This document shows, piece after piece, positions 33,267 through 41,992 of a stretch of DNA of 64,000 bases; the stretch's first letter is position 1; every line of letters starts with the position of its first letter. Below the pieces are notes generated by a model. The model was not told where the DNA came from. It ran no database searches and worked only from the letters and a program-made list of their open reading frames with translations. The stretch lies in the IMG/VR virus record IMGVR_UViG_3300028591_000003, positions 32,001-96,000 of that record; one strand, written 5' to 3'. The DNA is from a virus. Lineage: Duplodnaviria > Caudoviricetes. A program made the position numbers and the translations under genes.

Positions 33267-33312
33267 TAAAAAAAGAAAGGGAGTCCAATGGAAAACTCCA
33301 CCGAACTCCCTT
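33267..33312 (-). terminator. intrinsic terminator at end of RNA array
   Basis: AAGGGAGT...ACTCCCTT followed by TCTTTTTTT. Confidence 0.55.
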
Positions 33313-33403: not shown

Positions 33404-33516
33404 AGAGATACTTTATAATAATCAATGCAGGATTTGAACCTGCTACTTCAATTTTAACAAAATTGCGCTCTATCCATATGAGCTAATCGATCAAAATCAG
33501 TGTTGTAAGTATCTCT
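33404..33516 (-). ncRNA. ACUUACAA-module RNA: tRNA(GTT) cloverleaf enclosed by module stem
   Basis: AGAGATACTT-ACAACA...cloverleaf...AAGTATCTCT. Confidence 0.8.
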
Positions 33517-35098: not shown

Positions 35099-35163
35099 AA
35101 AGATACTTATTTTTATAACCATCCTATATTTATGTTTTATTAAAAATAGTTGTAAGTATCTTT
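35099..35163 (-). ncRNA. ACUUACAA-module RNA, short form
   Basis: AAAGATACTT-ACAAC...AAGTATCTTT. Confidence 0.7.
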
Positions 35164-35661: not shown

Positions 35662-35665
35662 ATAC

Positions 35666-35733
35666 AAGATACTTTCAACAACTAACCTAAACAATTTACA
35701 AACTATGAAAGTAATAAAAATTGTAAGTATCTT
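35666..35733 (-). ncRNA. ACUUACAA-module RNA, short form
   Basis: AAGATACTT-ACAAT...AAGTATCTT. Confidence 0.7.
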
Positions 35734-35759
35734 ATATTATAATTATGCCAAAAAAGGAG

Positions 35760-36022: not shown

Positions 36023-36146
36023 AAGTTACTTAATAAATATTTGCATTAAACCACTATGCTAATCCGCAAACATGGAGCAGATAATGGATTCGAACCACTG
36101 ATACTTTTTTAAGTATAATATTTTTAACTAATATTGTAAGTAACTT
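36023..36146 (-). ncRNA. ACUUACAA-module RNA, circularly permuted tRNA (YrlA-like topology)
   Basis: Module stem, T-arm GGTTCGAATCC, acceptor ATCTGC/GCGGAT closed by a loop, D-arm GCATAGTGGTTTAATGC, closing strand. Confidence 0.82.
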
Positions 36147-36886: not shown

Positions 36887-36968
36887 TTGAGATACTTAAA
36901 TTTATCTTTTACCAACACGTTGTTCCTATATTTATGTTTAATTAAATAAATATTTATAAGTATCTCAA
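36887..36968 (-). ncRNA. ACUUA(C/U)AA-module RNA, short form
   Basis: TTGAGATACTT-ATAAAT...AAGTATCTCAA. Confidence 0.7.
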
Positions 36969-37798: not shown

Positions 37799-38076
37799 AT
37801 TGTTTGTTGTTTGTTTAAAAATAAGAAGTGCGTTTCACAACGGACTTCTTTCTTGTAGATGAAAAGCCACTGCTTCTCCATAAATTTTAAAAATTTGAAT
37901 TAGTTCTATTATGATTTTCAATTACATTTTCAAAAAATTTTTCACTATCCTCACTTCCTTTAGAATCTAATCGCAGAACTTTCGACCTTAGAAGATATAC
38001 CAACGTACCCACCCAGGTTGAATAGGAAAACCACACTATTTTTAACGCGTATATTATTAGTGTGTAAAATAAATAG

Positions 38077-38209
38077 TCGGGGGACCAGGAATCGAACCTG
38101 GGACTTAGATTTATGAAATCCTTATTTTATTATGCTTTAAGATGTTGTAGGTATCAAAATGATACTAATGCTTTTATTTTCTTACATGTTACCACTACAC
38201 CATCCCCCA
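38077..38209 (-). ncRNA. tRNA scaffold with module in anticodon-arm position
   Basis: GGGGGA/TCCCCC acceptor, D-arm, TAAGA[..GTATC-ATTTT-GATAC-CTACAACA]TCTTA, T-arm CCAGG-TTCGATT-CCTGG. Confidence 0.78.
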
Positions 38210-38218
38210 TATAATAAA

Positions 38219-38350
38219 TCGGAAGGAGAGTTGGACTCGAACCAACAACACTTTGTTTAATAGACAAATACTCTAACCTCTTGAATTTATTAAATTATAA
38301 GTAACTCACGAAATTACTAGAATCAATTTTTATGTTGAGTTATCCGGCCA
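38219..38350 (-). ncRNA. tRNA(ATT)-like scaffold with module in D-loop
   Basis: ACTC..[AGTAATT-TCGTG-AGTTACT-TATAAT]..GGTTAGAGT; TTTGT-CTATTAA-ACAAA; T-arm; degenerate acceptor. Confidence 0.75.
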
Positions 38351-38496
38351 ATTTAATCCAAACTCTGTACAGAAACAGTTTCTTTCTTCATTATAGGTGC
38401 GTGTTATCCTAATTTTTACAGATTCAATGAAACTACCTACGTTTAGTTACATTATATCTGACCGCCAATTTCAATATCGCTGTTAGTTTGGATTAG

Positions 38497-38613
38497 TGGA
38501 GGGAGCAGGAATCGAACCTACATTATAGTCATTTTACGCATGATTAGAAATTTACTATGATTGAATGGTAAGTATCATATGATACTCGTCGTTACCAATA
38601 TTTCAATCCCTCC
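38497..38613 (-). ncRNA. tRNA scaffold with module in D-loop
   Basis: GGAGGGA/TCCCTCC-A; GAAAT[..GG..AGTATC-ATAT-GATACT-TACCAT..]ATTTC; T-arm. Confidence 0.75.
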
Positions 38614-38688
38614 AAATTAAAATTAGTAATCTATCTTCACAGACCAATTACTACTGTCAAACCTTAAAAAACATAACAAATTATGCAG

Positions 38689-38806
38689 CGGGGAGTACAA
38701 GAGTCGAACTTGCACTTCTGGAAAATCCCAGAAATTATGAAAGATGTTTTTGTAAGTAATAATTTACTACTCAACATAATCGGGCTTAACCATGCCCAAA
38801 CTCCCC
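38689..38806 (-). ncRNA. class-II tRNA scaffold with module replacing the anticodon loop
   Basis: GGGGAGT/ACTCCCC; ATTATG[..AGTAGTA-AAT-TATTACT-TACAAA..]CATAAT; long variable arm; T-arm. Confidence 0.8.
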
Positions 38807-38810
38807 TAAT

Positions 38811-38916
38811 TAAGATACTAGAAAATACATCTTGGAATCGAACCAAGTACACTCGGCGTTACGGCTGATGCTCTAACCAAATGAGCTAATGTGGTTATAT
38901 TATTGTAAGTATCTTA
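38811..38916 (-). ncRNA. ACUUACAA-module RNA enclosing a degenerate cloverleaf
   Basis: TAAGATACT-TACAATA..D-arm GCTCATTTGGTTAGAGC..T-arm CTTGG-TTCGATT-CCAAG..AGTATCTTA. Confidence 0.8.
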
Positions 38917-38974
38917 TTCGTCTCAAATAAAGAAATTATGATGCAGTTTTTCTTTTATCTGATGCACATCTAAA

Positions 38975-39367
38975 TCATTTTATACTATCATTTTTATTAA
39001 TAGACCAACTATCTACCCATTTGTCTAAAGCTTTTATACATTTATCTGGAAGTTGTTTTGCAGTTGGATTTGATTTAACATAATCAATAGTTCCACCAAC
39101 TCCATAAATAAGAAGTGCTTGATTTGTTGTAGGAATAAATATTTCTCCTAGACAGCAAACAAAGAAAATAGGTATTGTAAACCTAAGAATTTTAATTGAC
39201 AATTTTTGATACATTTTGTATTCAGTACGTTGGTCCTCAACTTCATTGCAATAGTTTACTAAATATACTATAAAAAATGCTATAGAAAGAATAATACTAG
39301 TAACAAGGAATATTGTTAAAACAGTACTGATTGAATCAAATCTTGTAATCCAATAAATTTCATTCAT
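38975..39367 (-). CDS. two-TM membrane protein
   Basis: YWITRFD, two hydrophobic helices, FIPTT. Confidence 0.78.
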   Translation of the reverse strand: MNEIYWITRFDSISTVLTIFLVTSIILSIAFFIVYLVNYCNEVEDQRTEYKMYQKLSIKILRFTIPIFFVCCLGEIFIPTTNQALLIYGVGGTIDYVKSNPTAKQLPDKCIKALDKWVDSWSINKNDSIK

Positions 39368-39386: not shown

Positions 39387-39452
39387 AGGATACTAAAAAT
39401 GTCCCAATTAAAAGTTAGGTGCTTACTAGCAATTTAGTATTATAAGTATCCT
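39387..39452 (-). ncRNA. ACUUA(C/U)AA-module RNA, short form
   Basis: AGGATACT-TATAATA...AGTATCCT. Confidence 0.65.
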
Positions 39453-39483: not shown

Positions 39484-39604
39484 AAGTTACTTAGTAAAAA
39501 ACGTTGCTCTAAACCAAGCTGAGCTATCCCGAAACCCTCAGGAGTTGGATTTGAACCAACGACACACGGCTTACAAAGCTGATTCTTGATATTGTAAGTA
39601 ACTT
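39484..39604 (-). ncRNA. ACUUACAA-module RNA, circularly permuted tRNA (YrlA-like topology)
   Basis: AAGTTACTT-ACAATA..T-arm GTTGG-TTCAAAT-CCAAC, TCCTGA-loop-TCGGGA, D-arm GCTCAGCTTGGTTTAGAGC..AAGTAACTT. Confidence 0.82.
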
Positions 39605-39611
39605 AATTAGA

Positions 39612-39642
39612 AACTAGAGGAGGAATCGAACCTCCTCTAGTC
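39612..39642 (-). other. tRNA minihelix-like hairpin
   Basis: ACTAGAGGAGG-TTCGATT-CCTCCTCTAGT. Confidence 0.6.
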
Positions 39643-39661
39643 GTGATGCTTATTAAAAAAA

Positions 39662-41521
39662 TCAAAGGGTATTTGCTCTCACGAGTTCATACCTATTGCT
39701 TCTATAGAGACTCAACAGTGGAGTATAGACATCAAAGACATCCATATCCTTGAAGTTAGTCAGGAATTGCTCAATCATTGCTGGATTCGAAGGTATGTAC
39801 ATCATGTTGTCAATTCCACTAAATCGGTCTGCTCCAGCACTAGCACGAGAGCCAACAGCACCAGTAACATCCATAAGGATTACGTAAGGACGGAATCCAA
39901 AGAACCCCTCACACTGACGGAAGAAATCGTTCATACTCGCCTCTGGTGAATACATATTATTGAACATACCATCAGACATGATTGTCCATACAGGATAGTT
40001 ACGAAGAGCATCCTTAATCTCAGGATTTGCCTGACAAGCCTGGTTCAATCCCTTAGGAATACATGAAATATCAGTATTCCATCCCTGGAACTTACTTTGA
40101 AGGAAAGCAGAAATCCTCTTGTAATTATCCAGGAAACTAAGTTTAGGATCAACGAATGGTTGTGCCTTAGTCTTAGCTACCTTACTTCTTAAGATTGAGT
40201 TCTGAGATGTAGCCTGAGAATCAATGTAAGAATAGAAACGAGATGTTCCATCAAACATACCAACGAGATTACGAGCATCATCATCGGGATTCTTAACCAT
40301 ACATACTGCAGTAATAAAGGCAGCAAATCTGAATGGTGTACCACTCATAGAACCAGAACTGTCAATAATGGTCAGTGAATTATAAGGAAGATTAACCTTA
40401 TTCATAAAGGACTCAATCTTCAACTTATCAATTGTGCCACTAAGAATCTGGTTGTAGAGTTCAGTAAAGTTAGTAGCACCAATTGTTACCTTGGCCTCTT
40501 TCTTCACTTTCTCCAATTTAACCTTATCCTCCTCACTAGCCTGACCTTGACGAACCTTCTCTTCCAGAATACGTTGTTCTTGTTGCTTCTGCTCCTTATA
40601 AGTTTCCCATTCCTTGATCCAAGGCTGGAACTTAGCCCACTTAGATACTTCTGCAATAGCTACATTAGACTTTCCATCCAATCCAGCTGTCTCACAGTCT
40701 GCACCTACTACCTTGGAATAGAGGATTCTGTTCTTAACCCTGAACCTAGCCTGAGATGGGAGCTTGTCAAACCAGTCGATGAATTGCTGCTTGTCAAACT
40801 CATTTATCTTGCCAGTAGAGAAAAGTACAGATTCAAGAGAGCCATTGTACTGCTTTCGCCACTCACGATAACCCTTAAAATATTCCAGTTCCCATCCCAT
40901 CATCTTAGAGAGTTCAGTTAAGAAGTTCTTTTTCTCATTCATTACCTGAATAGTCTCAGGAAGAACTCTCTTATGACCTTGACGCTTACTGGTTCTTGGG
41001 ATAGTCAAGAACTTGGCAATCAATGTCTTATTGAACGGATTAGAACCGTTAATCACAGCATATGTATAGTCAAGAAGAGCCTTCACATACTCTTTATCTT
41101 GAAATGCATGATATATTTTCAGTACCTTCGAACCCTTAGTTTGAACTCGATTACGGAACAAAACATCAAAGCATGTATACTCATTAAAGAGTTGTGCATT
41201 TAAAAACTTGATGAATTGTTTCTTATCTTTTTTCCAAAGCCAGGTTGTGATAGTATAGAAAGCCTCACGATTGGCATTACCACCACTGTCAACCTTCTTC
41301 TTTTTAAAGATGTTGTGCTGACGATTAGTAATGTCTCCAATAGAGAACAGGATTGAGAAGAAAAGTTCTCTCTTTTCTTTAGAGTTCTTTACTTCAAGCC
41401 ATGCATCATTCAGAAGAACCTCTGAAATAACTGCATCAGTTGATGCCTGCTGAAGTTGCAGACATCTGCGAAGTCCGTAAAACGGATTGTTACTTTTTTT
41501 ATTAAGTTCTACTTGTACCAT
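39662..41521 (-). CDS. DUF2828/TROVE(Ro60)-like helical domain plus vWA domain protein
   Basis: MIDAS IIDSSGSM...NTD...MSDGMF; N-terminal pattern AW...LF...DI...GG...RE.F, AKF...PR, KLPSQA recognised by eye as DUF2828-like. Confidence 0.75.
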   Translation of the reverse strand: MVQVELNKKSNNPFYGLRRCLQLQQASTDAVISEVLLNDAWLEVKNSKEKRELFFSILFSIGDITNRQHNIFKKKKVDSGGNANREAFYTITTWLWKKDKKQFIKFLNAQLFNEYTCFDVLFRNRVQTKGSKVLKIYHAFQDKEYVKALLDYTYAVINGSNPFNKTLIAKFLTIPRTSKRQGHKRVLPETIQVMNEKKNFLTELSKMMGWELEYFKGYREWRKQYNGSLESVLFSTGKINEFDKQQFIDWFDKLPSQARFRVKNRILYSKVVGADCETAGLDGKSNVAIAEVSKWAKFQPWIKEWETYKEQKQQEQRILEEKVRQGQASEEDKVKLEKVKKEAKVTIGATNFTELYNQILSGTIDKLKIESFMNKVNLPYNSLTIIDSSGSMSGTPFRFAAFITAVCMVKNPDDDARNLVGMFDGTSRFYSYIDSQATSQNSILRSKVAKTKAQPFVDPKLSFLDNYKRISAFLQSKFQGWNTDISCIPKGLNQACQANPEIKDALRNYPVWTIMSDGMFNNMYSPEASMNDFFRQCEGFFGFRPYVILMDVTGAVGSRASAGADRFSGIDNMMYIPSNPAMIEQFLTNFKDMDVFDVYTPLLSLYRSNRYELVRANTL

Positions 41522-41992
41522 TGTTTTAAATTTATTATTTGTAAGTAACTAATTAAATAAATTTCCTACATCTGTTTTATAGCAATTAACTCGTTCAATC
41601 TACTAAAGAGATTCTACTAAAGTGCAGATTCTCACTGCTTTTCTATTTTACAGTCTCCATCACGTTGCTTTACGTATCACAATGACCTCAATCACATGTT
41701 TGCCACTACAAGGTCTTTCAACTGTCAATTCAGTATGCCCATTGAAGGTTCAATATTGGAATTCCCTTCAGCCCTCGGAAATTTATTATAAATTAAAATA
41801 CTATCTAACGCTATAAACGCAGGAGTTGGCAACACCCTTTTCTCCCTAGCATAAGTTAATATGCCTCCAATTCGACCAATAGATAGTATTTTATCTGAAA
41901 AAGAGTGGCTTCGAGCGGTTTTATCTCTACTTCACCCGCGCTATAGTTTCCGCACACGTGGTTCCGGTATCAAGCTTCACTCTTATTCTTGT

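What the first reader, a model, noticed from the sequence alone, without database searches (positions are those of the whole stretch)
38077..38806. Four consecutive tRNA bodies with the module inserted inside-out in the D-loop or anticodon arm
Seen: in 38077-38209 and 38689-38806 the module occupies the anticodon arm; in 38219-38350 and 38497-38613 it expands the D-loop. Here the helix is capped by a 3-5 nt loop, so these are circular permutants of the open-ended forms. 38077 also has an extra GGAU-UUCAUAA-AUCU hairpin. The inserts are far too short for group I or II introns. tRNA finders would probably miss these or call them pseudogenes.
Basis: partly seen in the sequence, partly recalled or inferred. 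Interest (0 to 1): 0.85.

Follow-up and report, generated by a model that had tools for sequence, protein, structure and literature searches.

The report
tRNA-shaped phage RNAs carrying protein handle
Four neighbouring genes of a large crAss-like phage encode tRNA-shaped RNAs that cannot decode. Each carries the same small hairpin-plus-tail "handle" inside its D-loop or anticodon arm, most likely as a docking site for the Ro60-like protein encoded just upstream, which would make them a new layout of the known Ro60/Y-RNA particles.

Summary
On the minus strand, 38077-38209, 38219-38350, 38497-38613 and 38689-38806 are tRNA-shaped bodies with an acceptor stem, a GG D-loop and a T-arm. Each is 30-57 nt too long. 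The excess contains one shared module: a 6-8 bp helix (AGU...ACU) capped by a 3-4 nt loop, followed by unpaired UAYAA.

ARAGORN misses all four and Rfam scores only fragments. Related phages hold 73 distinct bodies of this kind. Their stems show compensatory changes, so they are not decaying pseudogenes. Their anticodon-like loops are absent or vary freely, so they are not decoders. Removing the insert does not restore a normal tRNA, and the phage encodes no splicing endonuclease or RNA ligase.

The same helix and tail also clamps the two ends of eight other small RNAs in this array. In the 176-kb genome the module occurs only in the 8 kb downstream of a 619-aa gene and in that gene's leader. 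This protein has a helical-repeat domain plus a vWA/MIDAS domain and resembles Ro60 by fold and by language-model features. It fails Pfam TROVE.

Best reading (0.55): insert-retaining, Y-RNA-like tRNA mimics, a new variant of a known kind. "Circular permutant" is only partly apt. There is no expression or binding evidence. This scan has noted similar Ro60-like/handle-RNA arrays, with other handle motifs, in other phages.

The parts
38077..38209 (-). E1: tRNA-shaped body, 133 nt. It has an acceptor stem (U1-G72), a D-arm GUGU/ACAU with GG and a T-arm CCAGG/CCUGG. The module lies inside a UAAGA/UCUUA stem directly after the D-arm. A further hairpin GGAU-UUCAUAA-AUCU follows.
   Evidence: Sequence. 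MFE z-score -2.25. One relative, L006, is 95% identical; 4 of its 7 substitutions are two compensatory pairs in the T-stem.
38145..38166 (-). E1 module: helix GUAUCA/UGAUAC, loop UUU, an A-C mismatch at the closing pair, tail UACAA.
   Evidence: Read directly. The motif variant ACCUACAA was listed.
38219..38350 (-). E2: tRNA-shaped body, 132 nt. D-stem ACUC/GAGU encloses about 70 nt including the module. The anticodon-like arm is UUUGU-CUAUUAA-ACAAA and the T-arm is GUUGG/CCAAC. The acceptor stem is impaired in this copy.
   Evidence: RNAalifold on 15 family members recovers the full cloverleaf, with 18 of 21 pairs showing compensatory changes. Rfam tRNA 34.2 bits over model positions 9-63. 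MFE z-score only -0.7.
38295..38318 (-). E2 module: helix AGUAAUUU/GAGUUACU, loop CGU, tail UAUAA.
38497..38613 (-). E3: tRNA-shaped body, 117 nt. The acceptor stem GGAGGGA/UCCCUCC is perfect. The module lies in the D region after UUGG. A small anticodon-like hairpin UCAU-GCGUAAA-AUGA and a T-arm follow.
   Evidence: z-score -3.0. Family alignment A5: acceptor stem, T-stem and module hairpin predicted, 8 of 17 pairs compensatory.
38566..38586 (-). E3 module: helix AGUAUC/GAUACU, loop AUAU, tail UACCA.
38689..38806 (-). E4: class-II-like tRNA body, 118 nt. It has a perfect acceptor stem, a D-arm, a 7-bp stem GAUUAUG/CAUAAUU enclosing 35 nt (module plus tail), a long variable arm UUCUGGG/CCAGAA and a T-arm. 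There is no anticodon loop.
   Evidence: z-score -5.6. Family alignment A3: 13 of 29 pairs compensatory. Stem and interior lengths. The acceptor and T arms resemble the phage's tRNA-Ser(GCU).
38750..38771 (-). E4 module: helix AGUAGUA/UAUUACU, loop AAU, tail UACAA.
38811..38916 (-). E5, the adjacent 'open-ended' form: 5' UAAGAUACU-UACAA..., then a tRNA-like body with only a 4-bp acceptor stem, then ...AGUAUCUUA 3'.
   Evidence: In 18 relatives 88.6% of cells are paired, against 33-40% when partners are slid. 19 of 29 pairs are compensatory and 0 of 500 shuffles reach the observed values.
39662..41521 (-). P0001, 619 aa: an N-terminal alpha-helical repeat domain plus a C-terminal vWA domain with a complete MIDAS motif (DSSGS...T...D). 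It is Ro60-like and is the candidate partner of the handle.
   Evidence: Negative for Pfam TROVE.
41539..41549 (-). Handle-like motif GUUACUUACAA in the leader of the P0001 gene.
   Evidence: The motif lies 17-30 nt upstream of the ATG in most homologous loci. No pairing partner was established.

Best explanation
E1-E4 are stable non-coding RNAs built on tRNA scaffolds. They are not decoding tRNAs and not intron-bearing tRNA genes.

They are transcribed as part of the long minus-strand array that runs from the Ro60-like gene to the strong terminator at 33277. Because they keep a 7-bp acceptor stem, a T-arm and the GG/T-loop elbow, host RNase P and the 3'-end processing enzymes can cut them out like tRNAs (inferred). 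E2 in this particular phage may be defective in this respect. The insert stays in the mature RNA (inferred).

The insert is a sequence-specific handle. It has a short helix whose second and third pairs counted from the tail (G-C, then U-A) are invariant, while the other pairs covary. An unpaired tail with consensus UAYAA-WA-YYA follows on the 3' side. The handle is the docking site for the alpha-solenoid + vWA protein encoded just upstream (inferred from synteny, genome-wide restriction of the motif to this locus, the motif in the protein's own leader, and the protein's Ro60-like fold).

As in Ro60/Y-RNA particles, the second part of the RNA, here an L-shaped tRNA mimic, would tether the protein to a tRNA-binding host factor or regulate the protein's access to other RNAs. 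The identity of that factor is unknown.

Sub-claims: conserved structured tRNA mimics that retain the insert, about 0.8. The handle is a protein-binding site, about 0.7. The partner is P0001 and the system works like Ro60/Y RNA, about 0.55.
For: 1. Structure under selection. Full cloverleaf with an expanded D-loop in the E2 family, 18 of 21 pairs compensatory. E4 family, 13 of 29 pairs compensatory. E3 family. In the E1 relative, 4 of 7 substitutions are compensatory T-stem changes.

2. A shared module. 73 distinct long bodies in 41 related loci all have a hairpin ending exactly before UAYAA. The second and third pairs from the tail are invariant (G-C, U-A), and pairs 1, 4, 5, 6 and 7 covary. 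An unbiased hairpin scan gives tail positions 1, 2 and 5 invariant and position 3 always a pyrimidine. Enrichment is 55% against 2-4%.

3. Not decoders. The E4 family has a 6-10 bp stem and no anticodon loop. The anticodon-like loops of the E2 and E5 families change freely between orthologues, including A34 and loops of 6 or 8 nt.

4. The same helix and tail clamps the ends of 8 other RNAs, with perfect 8-12 bp partners and covariation in relatives.

5. Locus restriction. In the whole 176-kb genome, strict modules occur only at window 33.4-39.6 kb on the minus strand plus the P0001 leader.

6. Synteny. The arrays start 60-200 nt after the P0001 homologue in the relatives. A pattern scan of IMG/VR, blind to the protein, gave 9 hits inside tRNA-like bodies. 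All 8 of these with usable flanks lie beside a P0001 homologue, against 0 of 110 chance hits.

7. The protein. The vWA/MIDAS domain is clear (Z about 10). The ten best whole-chain Foldseek hits are all Ro60/Rsr/TROVE entries at E about 1e-4. VIA gives Rsr Z 11.2 and the Ro60 of Thermus phage phiLo (phi-Ro60) Z 10.4 over 251 residues spanning residues 18-613. After leaving out DUF2828/DUF7788, all listed named ESM-Atlas clusters are TROVE, mostly with vWA_Ro60, at 0.93-0.94. The alignment shows 20 invariant or nearly invariant Lys/Arg/His in the N-terminal domain.

8. Precedent. YrlA tRNA mimics lie within 4 kb of Ro60 on the same strand in 254 bacteria and 22 phages, and M. smegmatis YrlA is cut by RNase P and receives CCA (PMC4201824). 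Phi-Ro60 binds two adjacent Yrl RNAs and host PNPase (PMC12135203). phi-crAss001 expresses a TROVE protein as an early gene (PMC8375218).
Against: There are no expression, end-mapping or binding data.

P0001 gives no Pfam TROVE hit even at E = 10. Its N-terminal domain alone matches only generic HEAT/ARM solenoids (Z about 6). TM-scores of the whole-chain matches are low (0.24-0.30).

The handle has no similarity to the published Ro60-binding motifs GNCGAAN0-1G or CGAA, and these are absent from E1-E5. No Rfam Y-RNA family matched.

The co-occurrence with P0001 comes from one phage clade, so it is not phylogenetically independent.

This phage's E2 copy has a damaged acceptor stem.

E1 rests on a single, 95% identical relative.
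Confidence: 0.55

Rival explanations
1. The helix plus UAYAA is a processing signal, not a stable protein handle. An endonuclease, host or phage, cuts at the base of the helix. In the open forms this releases the enclosed cargo from the polycistronic transcript. In E1-E4 it would nick or halve the tRNA-shaped bodies. P0001 could be unrelated or merely co-transcribed.
For: The array has no intrinsic terminator between P0001 and 33277, so every RNA must be released by processing. Open forms flank their cargo in the way leader-trailer stems flank rRNAs. The motif at the 5' side of the P0001 leader could mark an mRNA 5' end.
Against: An 8-12 bp helix is short for RNase III. Placing a cleavage site inside D-loops and anticodon arms of bodies that are otherwise kept tRNA-like by compensatory changes has no obvious use. 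Two invariant pairs plus a conserved 10-nt tail look more like a binding site. No candidate nuclease was identified.
Confidence: 0.15
2. The handle binds a different partner, either another phage protein or a host factor. In that case E1-E4 are tRNA-mimic decoys or sponges, for example for tRNA-targeting defence nucleases or tRNA-modifying enzymes, and are independent of P0001.
For: All evidence for a conserved handle applies equally. The freely varying anticodon-like loops in the E2 and E5 families would suit decoys facing diverse anticodon nucleases. P0001's TROVE identity is not proven.
Against: The tight synteny and the motif in the P0001 leader. The E4 and E1 classes have lost the anticodon loop that an anticodon-nuclease decoy would need.
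Confidence: 0.15
3. The inserts are a new kind of short tRNA intron that is excised to give ordinary tRNAs. For example, E4 would be tRNA-Ser(GCU) with a 28-nt intron between positions 34 and 35.
For: ARAGORN in intron mode calls E4 as Ser(gct) i(36,28) and E1 as Leu(aag) i(31,54). The acceptor and T arms and the long variable arm of E4 resemble the phage's tRNA-Ser(GCU). Six of 12 E4-family members could rebuild a G|CU anticodon. The host phylum has RtcB (control).
Against: The rebuilt loop is not conserved: the other members give UAU, UAA or AUU; G33 or U37 occur; and in L023 a 10-bp stem leaves no loop at all. In E2 and E3, removing the helix and tail still leaves D-loops of 20-29 nt. The anticodons of the E2 family are non-standard and variable. 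There is no BHB motif, and the phage has no splicing endonuclease, RtcB or Rnl2. The same module clamps the ends of non-tRNA cargo.
Confidence: 0.07
4. The four are decaying tRNA pseudogenes hit by a small hairpin-forming mobile repeat, or the motif is a DNA-level signal such as a phage promoter.
For: This phage's E2 has a broken acceptor stem. The motif recurs upstream of RNAs and of the P0001 gene. TTAC-type target sites and hairpins are typical of IS200/IS605-like elements (own knowledge).
Against: There are compensatory changes in every stem across relatives at 65-85% identity. The variable part of the helix covaries with a partner up to 108 nt away, which a promoter or a repeat consensus would not require. 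The motif is absent from the rest of the genome.
Confidence: 0.04

Closest known systems
Bacterial and phage YrlA / Y RNA-like RNAs bound by Rsr (Ro60), Chen et al. 2014 (PMC4201824)
   Same: These are non-coding RNAs encoded on the same strand within a few kb of a Ro60-type gene. They combine a protein-binding helix with a tRNA mimic that has D-arm, T-arm and acceptor stem. [quoted passage not shown]
   Different: YrlA carries its 5'/3' ends in the protein-binding stem, has a closed acceptor stem, and has the motif GNCGAAN0-1G. Here the ends are at the acceptor stem and the handle is capped by a loop. The handle sits in the anticodon position (E1, E4) or inside the D-loop (E2, E3). Its motif is AGU...ACU plus UAYAA, and up to 12 RNAs share it. 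The protein fails the TROVE profile.
Thermus phage phiLo Ro60 with Yrl1/Yrl2 (PMC12135203; PDB 9KOP, 9L5Y)
   Same: A phage-encoded helical-repeat + vWA protein with adjacent small RNAs bound through a stem and a short conserved unpaired motif. It is proposed to recruit host PNPase. 9L5Y is among the best structural matches of P0001 (Z 10.4, 251 residues).
   Different: The phiLo RNAs are simple stem-bulge-stem RNAs with CGAA and lie upstream of the gene. They have no tRNA scaffold, no grafting into tRNA loops and no array.
Intron-containing tRNA genes (group I in bacteria and phages; bulge-helix-bulge introns in archaea)
   Same: Extra sequence inside the anticodon or D region of a tRNA gene. 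In archaea one helix-based signal serves both tRNA introns and rRNA processing stems, which resembles the closed and open forms here.
   Different: At 21-24 nt per module and 30-57 nt of excess per body, there is no group I core and no BHB geometry. Removal does not restore a canonical tRNA. No endonuclease or ligase is encoded.
Stable small RNAs of the phage T4 tRNA operon (species 1 and 2) and tRNA-scaffolded RNAs
   Same: Non-tRNA RNAs embedded in a phage tRNA cluster and released by the tRNA-processing machinery. The tRNA body acts as a processing and stability scaffold.
   Different: No shared protein-binding module and no associated RNA-binding protein gene are known for the T4 RNAs (own knowledge).

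Membership tests
Ro60 / Y RNA (YrlA-type) ribonucleoprotein | A TROVE (HEAT-repeat ring) + vWA/MIDAS protein encoded nearby on the same strand | tested here: inconclusive
   P0001 lies 0.9-1.6 kb upstream on the same strand. The vWA/MIDAS domain is clear. The ten best whole-chain Foldseek hits are all Ro60/Rsr/TROVE (E about 1e-4). VIA gives Rsr Z 11.2 and phiLo Ro60 Z 10.4. ESM-Atlas named neighbours are all TROVE. Against this, there is no Pfam TROVE hit, and the N-domain alone matches only generic solenoids.
Ro60 / Y RNA (YrlA-type) ribonucleoprotein | RNA with the conserved Ro60-binding motif (GNCGAAN0-1G / CGAA) in a bulged stem formed by the 5' and 3' ends | tested here: not met
   There is no CGAA in E1-E5. 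The handle is an internal, loop-capped helix with a UAYAA tail. No Rfam Y-RNA family matched at E up to 10.
Ro60 / Y RNA (YrlA-type) ribonucleoprotein | A second RNA domain that mimics tRNA (D-arm, T-arm, acceptor stem, elbow) | tested here: met
   Acceptor stem, T-arm with UUCGAnU loop and GG D-loop are present in all four. They are supported by covariation.
Ro60 / Y RNA (YrlA-type) ribonucleoprotein | Physical binding of the RNA by the protein | not testable with these tools
   No RNA-protein prediction or pull-down data were available. The only evidence is synteny and locus restriction.
Functional (decoding) tRNA | Cloverleaf of 70-95 nt with a 5-bp anticodon stem, a 7-nt loop and an anticodon conserved among orthologues | tested here: not met
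   Lengths are 117-133 nt. The E4 family has no anticodon loop. E2-family loops vary (AUU, AUG, GCU, GUU, GGU and others, some of 6 or 8 nt). ARAGORN at default settings finds none.
Group I / group II intron in a tRNA gene | A catalytic core of at least about 200 nt (P3-P9, or domains I-VI) | tested here: not met
   The excess is only 30-57 nt per body, and there is no Rfam intron hit in 37800-39000.
Protein-spliced (BHB-type) tRNA intron | A bulge-helix-bulge at the exon-intron junctions, a splicing endonuclease and ligase available, and excision restoring a canonical tRNA | tested here: not met
   There is no 3-4-3 BHB geometry at the junctions (reading). The phage genome has no tRNA_int_endo, RtcB or RNA_ligase. 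The leftover loops are non-canonical and not conserved.

The most novel reading that the evidence does not exclude
E1-E4 are 'handled tRNAs'. They would be cut out by RNase P and RNase Z, receive CCA and perhaps even be charged. They would therefore enter tRNA-handling machinery (synthetases, EF-Tu, the ribosome, or anticodon-nuclease defence systems) while dragging along a Ro60-like protein bound to the internal handle. The different graft positions (D-loop before or after the GG, or the anticodon arm) would present the protein on different faces of the L-shape for different targets. This would be a programmable tRNA-guided RNP in the most abundant group of gut phages.
Probability: 0.12. Interest if true: 0.85.

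Novelty: new variant of a known kind. Interest (0 to 1): 0.62.

Why it matters
Ro60/Y-RNA particles are conserved from bacteria to humans, yet their mechanism is still poorly understood. Published bacterial and phage Y RNAs have one layout, with the handle at the RNA's ends.

Here a family of large crAss-like phages (41 related loci examined in rumen and gut viromes) keeps arrays of up to a dozen RNAs. In these arrays one handle is grafted at four different positions of tRNA scaffolds, including inside the D-loop, while authentic tRNA termini are kept.

This gives a natural series of topological variants for asking what the tRNA mimic is for and how the handle is read. It also explains a class of "missing or pseudo" tRNA genes in phage annotation. 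It adds a very divergent, Pfam-invisible branch to the Ro60-like proteins, with more than 1,200 metagenomic homologues and none in deposited phage genomes.

Tried and rejected
- **Generic scan for hairpin plus TAYAA.** This gave 93 hits, against 85-119 in shuffles. It is uninformative in this AT-rich DNA, so I replaced it with context-specific tests.
- **IMG/VR pattern scan for AGTATC-N3-8-GATACTTACAA.** 110 of the 119 matches, in 117 stretches, are chance or coding matches in unrelated phages. Only the 9 matches in tRNA-like bodies count.
- **Sequence searches for P0001.** Pfam, PHROGs and PDB sequence searches gave no family.
- **N-terminal domain alone.** Folding it and searching gave only generic HEAT/ARM/MIF4G matches (Z at most 6.4). 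The Ro60 entries did not appear in those lists.
- **tblastn of P0001 against GenBank phages.** Nothing at 1e-5. There was only a weak vWA match to Fusobacterium phage proteins of the DUF2828+DUF7788 type.
- **Autoregulatory hairpin.** I looked for a conserved hairpin between the leader motif and codons 3-6 of P0001. The AGUA partner is fixed by the Val codon and the remaining pairing is weak, so this is not established.
- **Tyr-codon specifier idea.** UAY in the tail matches the Tyr codons and could act like a T-box specifier. Position 3 is always a pyrimidine, but nothing else supports this, so I dropped it.
- **G.CGAA.?G matches.** The array has two matches (40860 inside the coding sequence, and 37986). 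This is chance level.
- **First structure string for A6.** It was mis-registered by one column and was corrected.
Full report
**Setting.** The window is bases 32001-96000 of a complete 176,443-bp virus record with direct terminal repeats. It is AT-rich (26-38% G+C) and carries 24 ordinary tRNA genes, 23 of them on the minus strand, including a CUA suppressor. Size, tRNA load and earlier notes fit a large crAss-like phage of the Zeta type (PMC7886860).

**The observation.** I read the four stretches on the minus strand. Each begins and ends with a tRNA acceptor stem. Each has a T-arm with a UUCGAnU loop and a D region with the GG that normally docks on the T-loop.
- E4 (38806..38689), E3 (38613..38497) and E1 (38209..38077) have 7-bp acceptor stems. 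E4 and E3 are perfect, and E1 has U1-G72.
- E2 (38350..38219) has two C-C mismatches and three G-U pairs in this phage, although its relatives have perfect stems.
- The bodies are 117-133 nt long.
- ARAGORN at default settings finds none of them. Rfam's tRNA model matches only positions 9-63 of E2 (34.2 bits) and weakly E1 (18.8 bits). No other Rfam family matches.
- Single-sequence folds give z-scores of -5.6 (E4), -3.0 (E3), -2.25 (E1) and -0.7 (E2).

**The module.** All four contain a helix that starts AGU and ends ACU (ACC in E1). It has 6-8 pairs, is capped by 3-4 nt and is followed directly by UACAA, UAUAA or UACCA. Coordinates are 38145-38166, 38295-38318, 38566-38586 and 38750-38771.

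**Relatives.** The 619-aa protein encoded just upstream (P0001, 41521..39662) has more than 1,200 metagenomic homologues. A profile of it retrieved 41 loci from IMG/VR.
- In those loci I looked for any acceptor-plus-T-arm body. Of 140 bodies longer than 98 nt, 118 carry the motif A[CU]NUA[CU][AC]A, against 10 of 249 normal-length ones.
- The 73 distinct sequences all have a hairpin ending exactly before the tail. Counting pairs from the tail, the second (G-C) and third (U-A) are invariant. Pairs 1, 4, 5, 6 and 7 covary, for example AGUAUC/GAUACU, AGUGAC/GUCACU, UGUGUC/GACACA and AGUAGC/GCUACU. Part of that invariance follows from the search pattern.
- An unbiased hairpin scan gives tail positions 1, 2 and 5 invariant (U, A, A), position 3 always a pyrimidine, and an extended consensus UAYAA-WA-YYA.
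- A local hairpin of at least 6 bp precedes 55% of motif occurrences inside long bodies. The figure is 4.3% elsewhere on the same strand and 2.0% on the opposite strand.

**Where the module sits.**
- RNAalifold on 15 E2-type sequences recovers a complete cloverleaf. Its 4-bp D-stem encloses about 70 nt, and 18 of 21 pairs show compensatory changes. In this class the module lies before the GG.
- In the E3 class the module lies after the GG. The acceptor stem, T-stem and module hairpin are predicted, with 8 of 17 pairs compensatory.
- In the E4 class the helix that follows the D-arm is 6-10 bp long. It encloses only a 2-4 nt linker, the module and its tail, 28-58 nt in all. A conserved long variable arm follows.
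- The acceptor and T arms of E4 resemble the phage's own tRNA-Ser(GCU), which is probably its ancestor.
- E1 has the module inside a UAAGA/UCUUA stem right after the D-arm, followed by the hairpin GGAU-UUCAUAA-AUCU. That hairpin can be read as a variable arm or as a relic Met-type anticodon arm. The only relative (95% identity) cannot decide between these. However, 4 of its 7 substitutions are two compensatory pairs in the T-stem.

**Not decoders, probably not spliced.**
- Anticodon-like loops in the E2 family read AUU, AUG, GCU, GUU, GGU, GAA and others, some with 6 or 8 nt. A GCU member has no long variable arm. The adjacent E5 family behaves the same way. The E4 family has no such loop.
- ARAGORN in intron mode forces E4 into Ser(gct) with a 28-nt intron that splits the anticodon, and E1 into Leu(aag) with a 54-nt intron.
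- Only 6 of 12 E4-family members could rebuild G|CU. Several of these would have G33 or U37, and one member has a 10-bp stem with nothing left over.
- Removing the helix and tail from E2 or E3 still leaves D-loops of 20-29 nt.
- The phage genome has no tRNA-splicing endonuclease, RtcB or Rnl2-type ligase.
- I put the intron model at about 7%.

**Open-ended forms.** Eight further sites in the window have the strand ...ACU-UAYAA followed 47-108 nt later by a perfect 8-12 bp complement beginning AGU. They lie at 33404-33516, 35099-35163, 35662-35737, 36023-36146, 36887-36968, 38811-38916, 39387-39452 and 39484-39604.
- The one next to E4 (E5) encloses a tRNA-like body.
- In 18 relatives the terminal helix covaries (GAUACU/AGUAUC, GACACU/AGUGUC, GUCACU/AGUGAC, GGUACC-type and others).
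- The whole structure is 88.6% paired, against 33-40% when partners are slid. 19 of 29 pairs are compensatory, and 0 of 500 shuffles reach the observed values.
- The acceptor stem of E5 is reduced to 4 bp. E1-E4 types keep 7 bp. A short acceptor stem is what spares Salmonella YrlA from RNase P, and a 7-bp stem is what makes M. smegmatis YrlA a substrate (PMC4201824).
- This suggests that closed forms get their ends from the tRNA machinery, while open forms keep the clamp helix as their ends.
- In both forms the AGU/ACU end and the tail face the body. 'Inside-out' or 'circular permutant' therefore describes the swap of termini and cap, but the attachment point also moves. E4 and E1 are exact topological permutants of the published YrlA layout.

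**Restriction to one locus.** Across the whole genome, strict open and closed modules occur only between window 33.4 and 39.6 kb on the minus strand. In addition, the motif GUUACUUACAA lies 17-30 nt upstream of the start codon of P0001, and it is kept in most homologous loci. The only strong intrinsic terminator on that strand is at 33312-33277, so the RNAs must be released by processing. A protein-blind IMG/VR pattern scan gave 119 matches in 117 stretches. Only 9 lie in tRNA-like bodies. All 8 with usable flanks sit beside a P0001 homologue, and none of the 110 chance matches does. These loci belong to one clade, so this is synteny rather than independent co-occurrence.

**The protein.**
- P0001 has a complete MIDAS signature (DSSGS...T...D), and its N-terminal helical domain carries 20 invariant or nearly invariant basic residues.
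- It has no Pfam, PDB-sequence or informative PHROG match, and the genome has no TROVE hit even at E = 10.
- The AlphaFold model (pLDDT 73) gives Ro60, Rsr or TROVE entries as the ten best Foldseek matches over the whole chain (E 1e-4 to 2e-3). TM-scores are low at 0.21-0.30.
- VIA-align ranks D. radiodurans Rsr first (Z 11.2). The Ro60 of Thermus phage phiLo comes third (Z 10.4, 251 residues spanning 18-613) among many vWA-only matches.
- The N-domain alone matches only generic HEAT/ARM solenoids.
- Language-model neighbours are viral clusters carrying DUF2828/DUF7788. When those are left out, all listed named clusters are TROVE, mostly with vWA_Ro60, at 0.93-0.94.
- The nearest GenBank phage proteins, from Fusobacterium phages and annotated 'RNA-binding protein', are DUF2828+DUF7788.
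- I conclude that P0001 is a very divergent protein with Ro60-type architecture (about 0.75). It is not a demonstrated TROVE member.

**Comparison with what is known.**
- Ro60-associated Y RNAs that mimic tRNA are known in 254 bacteria and 22 phages (PMC4201824).
- A phage Ro60 binding two adjacent RNAs and host PNPase has been characterised (PMC12135203).
- phi-crAss001 expresses a TROVE protein early in infection (PMC8375218).
- I found no paper describing tRNA-scaffolded RNAs with an internal handle, or any such RNA in crAss-like phages.
- This scan has noted Ro60-like proteins with arrays of 'handle' RNAs in other phages, with other handle motifs. I did not test those notes.

**Verdict.** The best reading is a new structural variant of the Ro60/Y-RNA theme. 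Membership in the YrlA family proper fails on the handle motif and on the position of the termini. The mechanism (retained insert, P0001 binding, tethering through the tRNA mimic) is inferred and has no experimental support.

Noticed in passing
window 33404-33516 (-): An open-form module helix (AGAGAUACU ... AGUAUCUCU) encloses a normal-looking tRNA-Asn(GUU) (33418-33493, Rfam 58.9 bits). So the same clamp can also flank an apparently functional tRNA.
   Followed up: partly
window 38356-38493 (-): The 146-nt spacer between E3 and E2 is closed by a 9-bp end-to-end helix (AUCCAAACU / AGUUUGGAU) and contains an ACCUAUAA motif. It may be another small clamped RNA of a different kind.
   Followed up: no
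window about 38630-38670 (-): Between E4 and E3 there is a hairpin AGUAAU...AUUACU with a 16-nt loop, followed by AAUUU instead of UACAA. It could be a degenerate or variant module.
   Followed up: no
window 39484-39645 (-): Directly after the P0001 stop codon lies a 10-bp minihelix capped by a T-loop (CUAGAGGAGG-UUCGAUU-CCUCCUCUAG). An open-form module follows, and its 105-nt cargo contains another T-arm (GUUGG-UUCAAAU-CCAAC).
   Followed up: partly
window 38219-38350 (-): The 5' and 3' acceptor strands of E2 do not match each other in this phage (GGCCGGA against UCUCCUU), although each resembles the strands of different relatives. This looks like a recombinant or decaying copy.
   Followed up: partly
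window 33277-33312 (-): A strong intrinsic terminator (16-bp stem and a U-run) lies just after tRNA-Val. It is the only convincing terminator on this strand between it and the P0001 gene, which implies one long polycistronic tRNA/sRNA/ORF transcript.
   Followed up: no
window 37978-37994 (-): GGUCGAAAG, a match to the published YrlA/Ro60 motif GNCGAAN0-1G, lies in the ORF-free stretch just downstream of E1. The number of such matches in the array is at chance level.
   Followed up: no
genome 150,68x-150,71x (+), outside the window: This is the only other strict hairpin-plus-tail match in the genome (AGUGGU...GCUACU UAUAAUACUA). It is on the other strand and far from the array.
   Followed up: no
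L003:10690-10831 and L005:10043-10180: In two relatives the E4-type module helix is extended by an apical stem-loop. That stem-loop contains GGACAAUC, which resembles the conserved loop of the E4 variable arm (GGGACACAAUCC).
   Followed up: no
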